Of a stretch of 64,000 bases of DNA, positions 38,701 through 45,100 are shown in pieces (the stretch's first letter is position 1; every line of letters starts with the position of its first letter). This DNA comes from the human T2T-CHM13v2.0 reference genome, Homo sapiens: contig CP086569.2 in the NCBI GenBank assembly GCA_009914755.4, forward strand, positions 4,640,001 through 4,704,000. Reading direction: 5' to 3'. The notes under the pieces were generated by a model, which saw only the letters and a list, made by a program, of their open reading frames with translations, ran no database searches and was not told the DNA's origin. Position numbers and translations under genes: made by a program.

Positions 38701-39026
38701 GAATTGGCCCCTACTTCCTTATATCCACGACCCTTCGAAGGCATAAACCAGCCACATTCCTCCTGGTACCTTTAGTGGTCCTTGGGGACCTGGCACCCGG
38801 ATGCCCACCCAGCCGTCGCCCACCAGGCAGCCAGAGCTGGCTGGCAAGCACCAGGCATGAGGCTCCGGGCTGGTTTCCTCCCTCTCTTGCCCCCTTTCCT
38901 ACCTTGGAAAAGCGCCGTCCATGCCCGCGACGCTGCCTGGTCTCTGGCAGCAATGCCACCTGACTCACTCCTGCTTGCTGTCTGGGGTAGCCAAATGCTA
39001 GGTCGCTAGAACTTCTCCTTCCCTCC

Positions 39027-39028
<2 letters not shown>

Positions 39029-39070
<42 letters not shown>
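39029..39070. repeat. (CA)21 microsatellite inside the CpG island.
   Basis: cacacacacacacacacacacacacacacacacacacacaca. Confidence 0.95.
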
Positions 39071-39071
<1 letters not shown>

Positions 39072-39539
39072 CCCTTCGCTGCTGTCAGAGGATTAATCTG
39101 GAAAGGCGATCGAAGTACCAGACCCCGCTCACAGTTGAGTATGATATATGCGGACAGCCTCTCAGCTCAAACTGTGACTTTGCCAGGCTTCTGCCCCTAC
39201 TACCCCTAGTCTGCCTTAAGTATCCTTTGTATGAGAAAACGGTGCTGTGGGATGCTTGTTCTCTAGCTGGAGTCGGCAGCCAGCGGTATCACAAGAAAAA
39301 CACACAAGAAAAATCAAACTTCTCTGAGAAAATGTGAATGGGTGAAACTTAAAGGGAAGCCTAAGAGAAGAGTGAGCAGAGGACCGAGGAGAACATTGTA
39401 TGCACAGGGTTTTGCTCAGGAAAGCTAGCAGCCCGAAAGCGGCGCGTTTTCTTCAGCAGCGGGTCCCGCACGCGAGAGTGCTGCCAGCACGCTTTCTGCC
39501 TCCTTCTCCAGGAGGCGAGCAGTAACTTCCTAAGCTTAC

Positions 39540-40123: not shown

Positions 40124-42078
40124 GTAAGTAACCGGACTGGGTACCTGTACAGGGTGCTGTCAGGGAGGCGTGAGGTCCACACTTAGTGCGCGGACACTGC
40201 CCGCTGCCTGCCCCTGAGGTCTGAACTATGACAACGGGGTGGTTTTAAAGACGCTTCTGCTATTCTCCCTTCCCCCTTCTCTTCCCGGGAGGGAAGAGAA
40301 AGAGCAAACCCCGGAGGTGAGCGCAGGGAGAATATCTTTTTGCACTACCACCGCTGCGCTTCGTTACTTTGGGAAAACTCTCACTTTTGTCAGAAATGTG
40401 TCGGCGCATGAATTTCCCCGACATTGGCTGTGCAAAAAGGTCTCTCCCTTTAAAGGGTACAGCCAGCTTCAGCGAGGCTGAGGGAAACTCTAAGGTTGGG
40501 GCGGGTGTTGACAAAAGAGCACGTCCCGGACTCCCAGACTCGCCCGGCTGAGAGATTGGAGCTGAGGGGCGATGCCTCTAGCTGAGAAACTACCCCTGGC
40601 CTCGCTGCGCTCCTCTGGGGGCTCGGGTTTGGATCCCTGCCAGGCTGGCTCCAACCCTTGAGGGTACGACCCTTGGCGCAGAGAGGAGGGCCAGGAGCGC
40701 ACAGGGTTCCCGGTGCTGTTTCTCTTGGCGCTCACCTCCCCGCCCTTCCTTCCCGCCCTATTTATGGGGCTGTACTCAGCCAGCACCTGCTGGATGTGGA
40801 GATGGTAGGTGTGAGAAATACTGCCTATTTTTTAAAAATCAACTTATAATCTAGCCGAAAAACGGCATCATTTTCTCATTTTAAAAAAATGACTTTTCTA
40901 AGAGTATTGCCAGACATAAAAGGGTTCCTCTTTCTCTAAAGAAATGACTTGTAATCCCTTAGCCAAATAAATAAATCAATAAACCGCCCACCTATCCCAT
41001 AAATAGATGGTGTTTTCTAAGACAGAACCCAGAAACAGTTCACGTCCTCACAAAGGAATTCTTTTTCTTAAAGCGCGTAGCGATAAAACGGCTCTTTTTT
41101 TTTTCGAGGAAAGTAATGTACCTTTTAAAAGAGGTTCATCGGAAAATGTGACTTTTTAAAAGCGAGCAGCCGCAAACGGGTGCATTTTTTAGACTTTAGA
41201 AGAGCGGAGCGGCAGTCCGCCCGGGTTGCGGCTGGGACTCGCATCTGAGCGCTTAGTCGCAAACGGACTGAGGGTTAGGAGGAGAGGTCACTTTCTCAGA
41301 GTGTACAGCCAGAGCCGCTTCCTTGCCTCTCCCAGGGAAAGACTTTTAGAGCTTAACCGAAGGTGGGCCCTTTTGCTTCAGAATGATTTATTCCGCGTTC
41401 CTCTGCTTCACCCGCCTGCGGCTTAGGGTGTGGGGCGCTAGGCTGCTCATGTGAAGCGCTTACGGGTGAGCCCTGGCCTCTCCGATGCAAAATATGGGCT
41501 GGGGGCTGGGAATTGCTATTTGCGCCACTGCGGCCTACACCCACAAAGCAAAAACCGTGGGGAAGAGGGGCTAGGACAAAAGAAAAAGAATTAAAGCTCA
41601 ACAACAAACAAAATAAAAATTTTTAAAGTGTCTTTTTCTTGTGTGGAAACATCACAAAATGGGATTTAAACCCAGCCTAGGATCTGTTTTGTACGAAGAA
41701 AAGTGTGTGGAAGAAACTGGTTGAAAATCCGGGTAGAAGGGGGAGGGGGGGCAGCAAAGATGGGGAGGAGGCGATGGTGTCATAGCAGTCGCCTGTGCGC
41801 TCTTAGCGCTGCAACCAGGAAACAACCTGAGGAGCATGCAGAGAATTCCGAACGCTGAGCACACCTGAGAACATAGACGTGCTTTGTGACTTAAAGCGAT
41901 CTAGGCCCCCTAAAAAGTAAAACAGGTGTGACTCAAAATAGAAAAGGAAACGGTACTTGAGGGCACCCGCGCAACTTGGTAAAGACTGACGGAATTCCAC
42001 TTTTAATCTTGTTTGAAACAAACTCTCGCAATCCCAGCAGGAAATTCCAGCGCCAGGGCTGGCCTTTCCTCTGTGGGT

Positions 42079-42079
42079 C

Positions 42080-42111
<32 letters not shown>

Positions 42112-42120
42112 TGTGTCGCG
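42079..42120. repeat. Alternating purine-pyrimidine (GT)n/(GC)n tract with Z-DNA-forming potential, inside the CpG island.
   Basis: tctgtgtgtgtgtgtgtgcgcgcgtgtgtgtgtgtgtgtcgcg. Confidence 0.9.
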
Positions 42121-45100
42121 GCGGGGCTGGGGGTGGGGAAGCAATTGGAAGCAAGTCGAAGTAATAGTGTATGTACACGTTTCCCCCTTTCTTGCCTTTG
42201 TCTAGTTCATCATAGAGAGAGCGCGGACCGTGTGCGGGCCGTCTTGACGAAAGAACCGAGAGATGGATGCGCTAAGGTCTAAAGATACCTTTCTCCCTCG
42301 ACTAAATTAAGAATTGCTGCGGCAGTTCCCAAAAGCTGAGTCCCGCTGCAGCTGCCAGGTCGCCACACTCGCCAAGCGGCGAGGGAGCGCCTTTGCCTAC
42401 CAGGCCGGAGAACCCTGTTCTTCAGTCGCCTTGGCAGGGGCAGCCCCTCCTTCTGGCAATGATGTCAGCTGCAGAGAGGCTTGGCCCGGCCGATGGGAAG
42501 CCGAGCGGCGAGTCCGACCCGCAAGCACGAGCAGCCCTGCCCCGCGCGCTCCCTGCGCGCAGCCGCCCTCGTGTCCCTTCGGCCCCTCCTGGGTCCTGGC
42601 TCGCAGCCCCCCCCCTTCCAGTCCCTCGCTCCTCAGAGGCGCGCTAAGGCGCCAGAGGCGGGGGTGGCCACTGCTGGCGGCCCGCCGCCGGTTTTAAACC
42701 CGGGGTTCAAACCCAGATTTGGGGTCTTCCCTCCTCCATTTCCTCCTTTCCTCCGCGCCCCAGCTCTCTCCCTTTTTCAGCTTGCACCTTCACTATTCAC
42801 AGTGACTTTACTTATTTAGCAACATTTTAGAGGGCAAGTGTTCCAGATGCAATAATAGTAGTAACTGGTGTTAAATTTCTGCTGTTTTCTCTCCCCTCGG
42901 GTGATAAAAAAGATGTGAAGAACGCCTCTTTAAAAAAAAAACCCCCGTGGCTGCTGCTTCGCCTGTCACAGAGCAAGCTCTCTAGAAGGCGGGGAGGGTC
43001 ATCTTTCCCACAAAATTGTGAGGTGGGGGAGGGTTTGTAACCTTAGGCGAAAGCGCAGGCTGGGGAATCCCCTTCACAGAAAGAAGAAACTGCAAATTGG
43101 AAGTTGCGGAAAGGCTCTATCCACTACTGCCATAGGGGAGAGACCACCATGCTCTTTATTTAGAGACCCGCGCTCCAAATTGGGATGATGCAGGAATAGG
43201 TTTCTTTAAGACGGAAGCCCGCTGCGGCTTCCCTTTTGAGCTTGCTCTTATAGTCCTAAGGAGCAAGCCCCTGCTTTGCCAAATTGGAGGCTAATCTGTT
43301 TTCCTGATTGCGGACAATTCCTTCTTTAGCTTTGGTAGAAGGGCCGCAGAATGCAGTTGGAGAAGGTTGCACAGGGCAAGAGGGAGGGGCAGAGGCAGGG
43401 CGTGTAGAGGCAACTGGCGCCTGGAGCAGAATTTACCTTCCAAAGGAAAAAATCTTCAAGGGGTGTCGCAACAAACTGCTTACTTACTGTGTTTTGGTTT
43501 GGACGCAGGTGAGAGATGTGGGCAAAGGGAGCAGGAGCAAAGAATTACTCTGTTTTGTAAAAGTAGGATTCTTCCCCCTTCCTTTTCTTCTTCCCTTTGA
43601 TGAAAAGCTTCCCTTTCATGACGTATAGCTGGCAGCAAACTTAAAGTTGCTGTGCGTCTGAAATACAGGAATGGGAAAGAAACTCCGACCAAGCATAAAA
43701 CACACTCATTTTCTAGAGCTCAGTCATTTGCTAAGGGTTGAAATAAACTGTGTACCCCCACTCCCTGCCCCTTCCCCCTGGCTCCTTGGCCTTTTTGTCA
43801 CCGGACTGGATTCTGAAGGACGTCCAGGTAATGCTGGGTTTCAGCAGCTGAAAGGCCTGGCAGAAGGGATTGCAGGTTTCACATTCTTCCTTCTCTTGGT
43901 ATTCAAAACTTTATTTATTTATTTATTTTTTGCGAGATAAAAATTCTTGATAGAGAGCTTCCAGACTGCTGGTGGCAGGGAAGCAATCTGGTTAAGAGAT
44001 TCAGAAAGCAGAAAATTCTTTTTCTCTGCGCAAGCAGTCCACAACAGCCTTTAGCTAGGATTTATAAGATTCTTGGTGGAGCAAGGCGAGGCACATCGAC
44101 AAGGAGAGTTTATATAAGCCACTGGCCTTGAGGTACATTGAAAAAATATGTATGGCAGCCACGTTTTCTTAGTGGGAAAGAAAATTATTCAGGGAATGAA
44201 ATTTTGAAGGCTAATTCTCTCCAAGAATCTTGCTTCACATAATTTAAAGGAGGTGTCATCCCTGTATTTGTTCACTGAGGAGTCCACAAACTTTAATTAG
44301 TCACCTACTGTGCCAGACAATGTGCTAGGCTCTAGGAATACAAAAGAGAGTATGACAAACATGGCATGGGCCTCTTTGAGCCATGACACTCTTATAGATC
44401 TAGGATACGATGTGATAAATGATGTAATTGAACATAATGGAGAGAGGAATTAATTTTTGTTAAGAGGTTGAGAAGAGGTTCATAAAGGAGAGAGAGGTCT
44501 GTGGCTTTAAAAATAGTCATTCCTAGTCAGTGGCTAGCCAAGAAATGTATCTGGAAGGTCATGACCTGCACAGAATAAGTAAGGAAGGGCATGAGGGCTT
44601 GGTGTCTTGTTACAAAGTTTAGAGGTATATGTGTGTTTTGTAGACCTAGAACATCTTTGAATATTTTTTTCCAGCAAATTCGTTAAAGTAACAACAATAA
44701 AATAGCCTGAGAAAATTGGGCAATAGATAGCACACAGTAGAAATATTATTGTTGTTTGCATTTAAATGAAGAATTGAATACATTGATGTATTACAGTAGA
44801 GACTGGAAGCAAATATGTTAAGAAGATAATGTAACATCCAGAAAAGAGGACTAATGAAAGAATAGGGCCTAAAGCTAATCAGTATAACTAAGAAAGAAAA
44901 GAAGGCTACTTTGGGGAATAAAATTTCTCTTTAGGCACCATCATGTATCCACTCAGATCTTTTTACTCATCTCACTTTCCCCATCCAGACTTCGAAAAAT
45001 TCCCCATCTTCCATCTATCCAGTAAACTCCCTTTGTCCTGGGGAGACCCCCACTCCTTCAGCCACTTTCAAGCACATTCATCTTCACCTCACCCCATTTT

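What the first reader, a model, noticed from the sequence alone, without database searches (positions are those of the whole stretch)
38780..43100. Orphan CpG-island cluster with head-to-head candidate first exons in a repeat-rich, AT-rich desert, suggesting a bidirectional promoter of an unidentified gene or lncRNA.
This is the only CpG-preserved DNA in the 64 kb, spanning about 4.3 kb. Elsewhere in the window CpG is heavily depleted, so its preservation implies a germline-unmethylated island.

Inside the island there is a perfect consensus 5' splice site on the + strand: …cgttatTAG|GTAAGTaacc at 40121-40129. On the opposite strand there is a good donor, GGAG|GTAAGC, at 39534-39543. The two lie head-to-head about 580 bp apart, which is the classic layout of divergent first exons. 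No ORF in the island looks protein-like. The track ORFs are Pro/Arg/Gly/Ala-rich runs that overlap one another in several frames. The exons would therefore be 5'UTR or lncRNA.

Multi-kilobase islands of this kind in gene-poor DNA are typical of developmental-regulator or neuronal gene promoters and of their divergent lncRNAs. Additional donor-like sites lie at 40798-40808 (gagATG|gtaggtgtg) and 43819-43827 (cCAG|GTAATG).
Basis: partly seen in the sequence, partly recalled or inferred. Interest (0 to 1): 0.6.

Follow-up and report, generated by a model that had tools for sequence, protein, structure and literature searches.

The report
Ordinary CpG-island promoter cluster, gene unnamed
This is a genuine 3.5-4.3 kb block of unmethylated-type CpG-island DNA in primate (human-like) sequence. 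It looks like an ordinary TATA-less promoter region with non-coding first exons, and I could not name the gene with the tools available.

Summary
The CpG observation is real. Region 38780-43100 has GC 0.546 and CpG o/e 0.65 (210 CpG). The rest of the window has GC 0.364 and o/e 0.21 (P~3e-42). The block is unique sequence, not a repeat. It resolves into two Takai-Jones islands (39693-40614 and 41941-43055) and a weaker one (41102-41618).

It is not the only CpG-rich DNA in the window. An L1 5'UTR and several Alus also pass island criteria, but they are repeats.

Both head-to-head donors exist at the stated coordinates and are strong. Strong donors are common here, however, and one such pair is expected by chance in about 1 window in 4.

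Support for a promoter is indirect:
- 10 of the window's 14 GGGCGG boxes lie in or beside the island.
- There is no TATA box.
- GC skew changes sign at ~39.82 kb, between the two donors, and again at ~42.9 kb.
- No ORF has a protein or Pfam match, and no Rfam family matches.

No transcript, CAGE, methylation or conservation data could be reached, so exon use and bidirectionality remain inferred.

Gene identity was not established. HAS2 is unlikely and BDNF only weakly disfavoured; neither test was decisive.

Verdict: a known kind of element, almost certainly already annotated. Low interest.

The parts
38780..43100 (.). CpG-preserved (germline-hypomethylated type) domain. The core is ~39.4-42.8 kb.
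   Evidence: GC 0.546, CpG o/e 0.65, 210 CpG against 69 expected at the flanking o/e. Unique sequence.
39693..40614 (.). Island A. Meets Takai-Jones criteria and is of intermediate CpG strength.
   Evidence: 922 bp, GC 0.585, o/e 0.65, 51 CpG. GGGCGG boxes at 39832, 40059 and 40499.
39826..40123 (+). Candidate non-coding first exon on the + strand. The 3' end is fixed by the donor TAG|GTAAGT (40121-40129). The 5' end is inferred only, from the GC-skew switch and the GC box at 39832.
   Evidence: Donor scores 10.5-11.2 bits and contains the only AGGTAAGT in the window. Skew switch. No coding potential. An alternative donor GAG|GTGAGC lies at 40316.
39540..39800 (-). Candidate divergent first exon on the - strand, ending at the donor GAG|GTAAGC (39534-39543 on +). 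The 5' end is inferred.
   Evidence: Donor scores 10.3-11.0 bits. The + strand is C-rich here (skew -0.40 at 39676-39825), so the - strand is G-rich. GGGCGG boxes on the - strand at 39553 and 39590.
41102..41618 (.). Island B. Meets only the Gardiner-Garden criteria. It is preceded by an AT-rich stretch that still keeps its CpGs (41001-41200).
   Evidence: 517 bp, GC 0.515, o/e 0.80. 41001-41200 has GC 0.38 and o/e 1.43.
41941..43055 (.). Island C, the strongest island. Probably a second promoter, either alternative or antisense.
   Evidence: 1115 bp, GC 0.569, o/e 0.75, 68 CpG. 500-bp windows reach GC 0.65 and o/e 0.83. GC skew switches sign at ~42.9 kb. CRE-like TGATGTCA next to CAGCTG at 42460-42471.
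43093..43287 (+). Three CAAATTGG motifs (CCAAT boxes read on the - strand), spaced 83 and 104 bp apart, just right of island C.
   Evidence: 3 of only 7 matches in the whole window fall within 195 bp.
39029..39070 (+). Perfect (CA)21 microsatellite, ~0.75 kb left of the inferred start sites.
   Evidence: TRF score 84, 100% matches.
42072..42123 (+). Compound (TG)n(CG)n(TG)n repeat with alternating purine-pyrimidine bases, inside island C.
43500..43514 (+). Strong + strand donor CAG|GTGAGA (exon end at 43508), downstream of island C. A possible end of an alternative first exon.
   Evidence: 11.5 bits, rank 7 of 6273.

Best explanation
The region is a cluster of germline-unmethylated CpG islands. 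It serves as the TATA-less, Sp1/KLF-box type RNA polymerase II promoter region of one or more transcription units in a gene-poor, AT-rich part of a primate (human-like) genome.

The most likely layout is as follows.
- Transcription starts in both directions around 39.8 kb.
- The + strand transcript has a ~0.3 kb non-coding first exon, spliced at 40123|40124. Its next exon lies beyond the window, or is too small to recognise.
- The - strand gives a divergent non-coding transcript that may splice at 39540|39539.
- A second, stronger island 2.3-3 kb downstream (41.9-43.05 kb) acts as an alternative or intron-1 antisense promoter.

Shown: CpG preservation, uniqueness, lack of coding potential, motif content, donor sequences and skew switches.

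Inferred: that transcription actually starts here, which donors are used, and that both directions give stable RNA.

The gene was not identified. The element is of a fully known kind and is very probably already annotated.
For: - CpG o/e is 0.65 against 0.21 outside, P = 3e-42, with no TpG/CpA excess inside.
- Two Takai-Jones islands plus one Gardiner-Garden island.
- No Alu or MIR match and no match to the rest of the window. No LTR-like or other long repeats.
- 10 of 14 GGGCGG boxes and 4 of 6 GCCNNNGGC motifs fall in the 38500-44200 interval. Nine of the ten GC boxes lie inside 38780-43100.
- None of the 186 TATAWAW matches falls between 38500 and 44059.
- GC-skew sign switches at ~39.82 kb and ~42.9 kb.
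- Strong U1-type donors point outward on both sides of the first switch: + 40123, + 40316 and - 39540.
- The first AATAAA/ATTAAA signal lies about 1 kb away in each direction, after those donors.
- 16 island ORFs gave no hit at E<=1e-5 in the 5.8-billion-protein search, and no Pfam domain.
- No Rfam family matched.
- The window is primate: AluY copies, a full-length L1 and a U2 pseudogene.
Against: - No transcript, CAGE, chromatin, methylation or cross-species data could be consulted.
- The donors are not statistically exceptional. A head-to-head pair this strong arises by chance in 23-43% of random placements.
- Long-range strand asymmetry across the island is weak and not significant.
- ETS/GABPA, NRF1, YY1 and ZNF143 motifs are absent from the island.
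- Island A is only of intermediate CpG strength (o/e 0.65).
- The donor matrix was built from approximate frequencies that I supplied. It is not MaxEntScan.
Confidence: 0.6

Rival explanations
1. Two tandem alternative promoters of one + strand gene. P1 lies in island A and P2 in island C, each with its own non-coding first exon (donors at 40123/40316 and at 43022/43508). The - strand donor is a chance match, and any antisense RNA is only short-lived upstream antisense transcription.
For: Two separate Takai-Jones islands lie 1.3 kb apart. Strong + strand donors follow each island. The head-to-head pair is not beyond chance. The slight positive skew downstream of the cluster fits + strand transcription.
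Against: The + strand is strongly C-rich at 39676-39825 and at 42526-42900, which fits - strand transcription out of both islands. The - strand donor at 39540 is as strong as the + strand ones. The first - strand poly(A) signal is about 1 kb away, not immediately adjacent.
Confidence: 0.2
2. A true orphan CpG-island cluster with no stable spliced RNA. It could be a Polycomb-bound or poised regulatory element, a distal enhancer, or a replication-origin-associated island. All the splice-like sites would then be fortuitous.
For: No coding exon is recognisable anywhere in the 64 kb. The donors are within chance expectation. CpGs are kept even in AT-rich spacers, as in broad hypomethylated valleys. 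Cumulative GC skew is lowest at the island.
Against: Most CpG islands of this size with GC-box clusters do initiate transcription (established knowledge). The fine-scale skew switches coincide with outward-facing strong donors. The long-range skew is too weak to indicate an origin.
Confidence: 0.15
3. CpG-rich DNA derived from a repeat or retrocopy (a young LTR, SVA, L1 5'UTR or processed pseudogene), or an internal protein-coding exon.
For: Other CpG-rich segments in this window are exactly that: an L1 5'UTR and several Alus.
Against: No similarity to Alu, MIR or any other part of the window. One search found only the dinucleotide arrays as repeats, and none was LTR-like. I saw no poly(A) tail when reading. 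No protein or Pfam match for any ORF. The ORFs overlap in several frames and are Pro/Arg/Gly/Ala-rich, as expected from composition alone.
Confidence: 0.03

Closest known systems
TATA-less, Sp1-box CpG-island RNA polymerase II promoters with a non-coding first exon (intermediate- to high-CpG class)
   Same: Meets the CpG-island criteria. GC boxes are clustered and there is no TATA box. A strong U1-type donor lies a few hundred bp downstream of the inferred start. The sequence has no coding potential.
   Different: The start site was not observed. Island A is only of intermediate strength (o/e 0.65-0.72).
Bidirectional promoters and divergent lncRNA/mRNA pairs
   Same: Outward-facing strong donors lie 583 bp apart. 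The GC-skew sign switches between them. The promoter is a TATA-less CpG island.
   Different: The motifs enriched in classical bidirectional promoters (GABPA/ETS, NRF1, YY1, ZNF143) are absent. The two start sites were not demonstrated. The pair is not beyond chance.
Orphan CpG islands and broad DNA-methylation valleys at developmental genes
   Same: A multi-kb CpG-preserved domain in gene-poor, AT-rich DNA. CpGs are retained even in AT-rich spacers. No coding exon is detectable within 64 kb.
   Different: GC content and o/e are lower than in typical Polycomb-target valleys. Whether it is 'orphan' cannot be assessed without annotation.
Sense gene with an antisense lncRNA promoter in intron 1 (HAS2 / HAS2-AS1-like layout, recalled from memory)
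   Same: The second island lies ~2.5-3 kb downstream of the first. The - strand is G-rich across it, and CCAAT boxes lie just to its right.
   Different: Identity with HAS2 is unlikely. By my recollection of a ~29 kb gene, exon 2 should lie inside the window. The antisense start is inferred only.

Membership tests
CpG island (Gardiner-Garden & Frommer; Takai & Jones) | Length >=200 bp (GGF) or >=500 bp (TJ) | tested here: met
   Island lengths are 922 bp, 517 bp and 1115 bp.
CpG island (Gardiner-Garden & Frommer; Takai & Jones) | GC >=0.50 (GGF) or >=0.55 (TJ), and CpG o/e >=0.60 (GGF) or >=0.65 (TJ) | tested here: met
   39693-40614 has GC 0.585 and o/e 0.65. 41941-43055 has GC 0.569 and o/e 0.75. 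41102-41618 meets GGF only (GC 0.515, o/e 0.80).
CpG island (Gardiner-Garden & Frommer; Takai & Jones) | Not derived from Alu or another repeat | tested here: met
   No Alu or MIR match. No match to the rest of the window. No full repeat library was available, so old repeat families are not formally excluded.
CpG island (functional sense) | Unmethylated in the germline | tested here: inconclusive
   Inferred from CpG retention without TpG/CpA excess. No methylation data were available.
Bidirectional promoter | Two start sites on opposite strands, less than 1 kb apart | not testable with these tools
   Only indirect evidence: a skew switch at ~39.82 kb and outward-facing donors 583 bp apart.
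Bidirectional promoter | Overlaps a CpG island and is depleted of TATA boxes | tested here: met
Bidirectional promoter | Enrichment of GABPA/ETS, NRF1, YY1 or ZNF143 sites (typical, not obligatory) | tested here: not met
   No match to any of these consensus motifs between 38500 and 44200.
U2-type GT-AG intron donor | Match to MAG|GTRAGT | tested here: met
   TAG|GTAAGT at 40123 and GAG|GTAAGC at 39540, scoring 10.3-11.2 bits. Actual use was not tested.
Protein-coding exon | ORF with protein homologues or a known domain | tested here: not met
   No hit at E<=1e-5 for 16 concatenated ORFs. No Pfam family for 9 of 10 ORFs, and one chance-level match (E = 0.09) for the tenth.
Curated RNA family (Rfam lncRNA regions, miRNA, snoRNA) | Covariance-model hit at the gathering score | tested here: not met
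   The only hit in the window is U2 at 58593-58783. The permissive scan of 37500-45000 gave only chance-level hits, E >= 1.6.

The most novel reading that the evidence does not exclude
The cluster is a truly orphan, still unannotated pair of closely spaced bidirectional promoters in a gene desert. It would drive tissue-restricted lncRNAs, or serve as a distal alternative promoter of a developmental gene more than 24 kb away.
Probability: 0.07. Interest if true: 0.25.

Novelty: already known. Interest (0 to 1): 0.1.

Why it matters
It matters little beyond annotation. CpG-island promoters with non-coding first exons and divergent transcription are among the best-catalogued elements of mammalian genomes.

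If this one mapped to no annotated start site, it would add one orphan island with lncRNA candidates in a gene desert. That would be of local interest for the regulation of the nearest developmental or tissue-specific gene, but it would not be a new kind of element.

Tried and rejected
Naming the gene failed by every route available.

1. BDNF exon I-VI primers and the exon IX start, all recalled from memory: no match with up to 4 substitutions. The window also lacks a second CpG cluster ~17 kb away.
This argues against HAS2, given my recollection that the gene spans ~29 kb.
3. Four full-text searches with 24 sequence words taken from the exon, donors, motifs and microsatellite flanks. Three returned nothing and one returned two unrelated chance hits.
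4. Two candidate-gene text searches, on MEF2C and on the mineralocorticoid receptor exons 1alpha/1beta, were unproductive. Both genes remain untested guesses.
5. A genome-wide CRISPRi guide table, which could have named the start site, is held only in truncated form.
6. Exact look-up of two island ORFs in the contig collection: not on record.
7. An exact 20-mer across the 40123 donor: no match in the metagenome contigs.
8. The protein-family tool refuses six-frame translations that contain stop codons. I read 249 stop-free segments of at least 32 aa from the flanks by eye and saw nothing protein-like. This is weak evidence.

Other negative or uninformative results:
- Transcription-coupled strand asymmetry has the right sign but is too weak to use.
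- Comparing poly(A) signals with donors in each direction gave a symmetric picture that does not discriminate.
- Repeat origin was rejected.
- Coding-exon origin was rejected.

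
Full report
WHAT THE WINDOW IS

The window is primate, human-like nuclear DNA. 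It carries at least nine Alu copies, one of them 96% identical to an AluY consensus that I supplied. It also carries a full-length L1 on the + strand at ~12.7-18.9 kb, with ORF2 broken into three pieces, and a U2 snRNA-like sequence at 58593-58783. Overall GC is 0.376 and CpG o/e is 0.28. No long ORF outside the L1 looks like a gene.

CHECK OF THE CpG OBSERVATION

The CpG claim holds. Region 38780-43100 has GC 0.546 and o/e 0.651 with 210 CpG. The remaining 59.7 kb has GC 0.364 and o/e 0.215. At the flanking o/e only 69 CpG would be expected in the block (P = 3e-42).

Outside the block, TpG and CpA are in excess (o/e 1.17 and 1.18). Inside they are not (1.07 and 0.96). That is the pattern expected if only the flanks were methylated in the germline. 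A 200-bp profile puts the preserved core at ~39.4-42.8 kb, with shoulders that decay towards 38.8 and 43.4 kb. Even the AT-rich stretch 41001-41200 (GC 0.38) keeps 10 CpG, for an o/e of 1.43.

A sliding-window island caller gives two Takai-Jones islands:
- Island A, 39693-40614: 922 bp, GC 0.585, o/e 0.65.
- Island C, 41941-43055: 1115 bp, GC 0.569, o/e 0.75.

It also gives a weaker, Gardiner-Garden-level island B at 41102-41618. Island C is the stronger of the two. Its 500-bp windows reach GC 0.65 and o/e 0.83, against at most 0.57 and 0.72-0.74 in island A.

The block is unique sequence. It has no blastn match to the rest of the window and no Alu or MIR similarity. The only repeats are a perfect (CA)21 at 39029-39070 and a compound (TG)n(CG)n(TG)n at 42072-42123.

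This is not the only CpG-rich DNA in the window. The segment 12696-13275, at the 5' end of the L1, meets Takai-Jones criteria, and four Alu-centred segments plus the U2-pseudogene/Alu junction meet Gardiner-Garden criteria. The finding is the only non-repeat island.

CHECK OF THE SPLICE-SITE OBSERVATION

All four sites exist at or within a few bases of the stated coordinates. I scored every GT in the window on both strands, 6273 sites in all, with a 9-position donor matrix. The matrix uses approximate human frequencies from my own knowledge and is not MaxEntScan.

- The + donor at 40123 scores 10.5 bits (rank 13) with window background, or 11.2 bits (rank 4) with uniform background.
- The - donor at 39540 scores 11.0 bits (rank 10), or 10.3 bits (rank 9).

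These are good sites. AGGTAAGT occurs only once in the window, at this + donor. My own composition-based estimate is that about 2.5 copies would be expected, so its presence is not an enrichment.

However, 22 sites reach 10 bits in the window. Five of them are in the island, against 1.5 expected from length, which is a composition effect. A head-to-head pair this strong, 100-1000 bp apart, appears in 23-43% of random placements of the same number of sites. The donors are therefore compatible with the reading but are not evidence on their own.

WHAT ELSE THE SEQUENCE SAYS

Motifs:
- Ten of the window's 14 GGGCGG boxes and four of six AP-2-like GCCNNNGGC motifs fall in 38500-44200. Nine of the ten boxes lie inside 38780-43100.
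- None of the 186 TATAWAW matches in the window falls between 38500 and 44059.
- There is no ETS/GABPA, NRF1, YY1, ZNF143 or CTCF consensus in the island.
- A perfect CArG box (CCTTTAAAGG) lies at 40447.
- A MEF2-like site (40758) lies next to a CACCTG E-box (40784).
- A CRE-like TGATGTCA lies beside CAGCTG at 42460-42471.

Fine-scale GC skew in 150-bp windows changes sign twice:
- From -0.40 at 39676-39825 to +0.12 at 39826-39975. This lies exactly between the two head-to-head donors.
- From -0.2 to -0.4 over 42526-42900, to +0.16 to +0.33 over 42900-43500.

From established work on CpG-island promoters, the non-template strand tends to be G-rich downstream of the start site. Each switch is therefore where a divergent pair of starts would be expected. 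This is suggestive, not proof.

Three CAAATTGG motifs (CCAAT boxes read on the - strand) lie within 195 bp at 43093-43287. They are 3 of only 7 matches in the window, and they sit just right of the second switch.

The first poly(A) hexamer lies about 1 kb from ~39.8 kb in each direction, beyond the donors, so neither direction looks prematurely terminated. Long-range strand asymmetry, with repeats masked, has the sign expected for divergent transcription (S = -0.023 upstream, +0.025 downstream). It is too small to count as evidence.

CODING AND RNA-FAMILY TESTS

Sixteen stop-free stretches from the island were concatenated and searched against 5.8 billion proteins. None scored E<=1e-5. Of ten searched against Pfam, nine matched nothing, and the tenth had one chance-level match at E = 0.09. 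Rfam found only the U2 sequence at gathering thresholds in the whole window, and only chance-level hits in a permissive scan of 37500-45000.

MOST LIKELY EXPLANATION

This is a germline-unmethylated CpG-island promoter cluster.
- Starts lie around 39.8 kb.
- They give a + strand non-coding first exon of about 0.3 kb, spliced at 40123 or alternatively at 40316.
- They probably also give a divergent - strand RNA that may splice at 39540.
- Island C, 2.3-3 kb downstream, is a second promoter. It is either an alternative first exon of the same + strand unit (donors at 43022 or 43508) or an antisense promoter in intron 1.

I put this at about 0.6. The rivals are:
- tandem one-directional promoters, 0.2;
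- a transcriptionally silent or poised orphan island, 0.15;
- repeat or coding origin, 0.03 or less.

IDENTITY

I could not name the gene.
- BDNF primers and the exon IX start, recalled from memory, had no match. This only weakly disfavours BDNF.
By my recollection of a ~29 kb gene, exon 2 should fall inside the window, so HAS2 is unlikely.
- Four literal sequence searches of the paper library returned nothing relevant.
- Two candidate-gene text searches were unproductive.
- A CRISPRi guide table is stored only in truncated form.
- Exact ORF look-ups found nothing.
- A metagenome scan for the donor 20-mer found nothing.

None of the available collections holds an annotated vertebrate genome. 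A single BLAT against the human reference would settle the identity.

NOVELTY AND SCORE

The kind of element is thoroughly known. In a human-like genome an island of this size is almost certainly in the CpG-island, GENCODE and CAGE catalogues already. The most novel reading that remains open is an unannotated pair of closely spaced bidirectional lncRNA promoters in a desert. I give that about 7%, and it would be only modestly interesting even if true.

Noticed in passing
window 58593-58783 (+): A full-length U2 snRNA-like sequence (Rfam RF00004, 156.8 bits). Its 5' end reads ATCACTTCTCAGCC where, from memory, canonical U2 has ATCGCTTCTCGGCC, which is CpG decay. It has an A-rich leader, and an Alu with an A31 tail follows directly at 58807-59119. 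I read it as a decayed U2 pseudogene.
   Followed up: partly
window ~12690-18900 (+): A full-length L1. ORF1 is truncated (129 aa) and ORF2 is split into pieces of 690, 270 and 286 aa. The CpG-rich segment at its 5' end (12696-13275, presumably the 5'UTR) passes Takai-Jones island criteria, so a naive island caller reports it alongside the real island.
   Followed up: partly
window 20070-20358 (-), T28 at 20049-20076: An Alu 96% identical to my AluY consensus, with an intact 28-nt tail. It is a comparatively young insertion. It also passes the Gardiner-Garden CpG criteria.
   Followed up: no
window 39029-39070 and 42072-42123: A perfect (CA)21 and a compound (TG)n(CG)n(TG)n lie in inverted orientation 3 kb apart, bracketing islands A and B. 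Both are alternating purine-pyrimidine tracts that could form Z-DNA, and (CA)21 is likely to be polymorphic.
   Followed up: no
window 43093-43287 (+): Three exact CAAATTGG motifs (CCAAT on the - strand), spaced 83 and 104 bp apart. They are 3 of only 7 in the 64 kb and lie just right of the second GC-skew switch. They may be NF-Y boxes of a promoter in island C.
   Followed up: partly
window 40447-40456 and 40758-40789: A perfect CArG box (CCTTTAAAGG), plus a MEF2-like CTATTTATGG 26 bp from a CACCTG E-box. The combination is reminiscent of muscle-type regulatory modules. It prompted an untested guess of MEF2C.
   Followed up: partly
window ~44950-45850 (+): About 1 kb of markedly pyrimidine-rich + strand (GC skew -0.35 and AT skew -0.28 in 45001-46000). 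It gives long low-complexity ORFs. Its origin is unknown; it could be an old repeat or a polypyrimidine tract.
   Followed up: no
window 3001-4000: GC 0.50 but CpG o/e only 0.08. This GC-rich DNA has lost its CpGs, in contrast with the island. It is probably an old repeat or methylated unique sequence.
   Followed up: no
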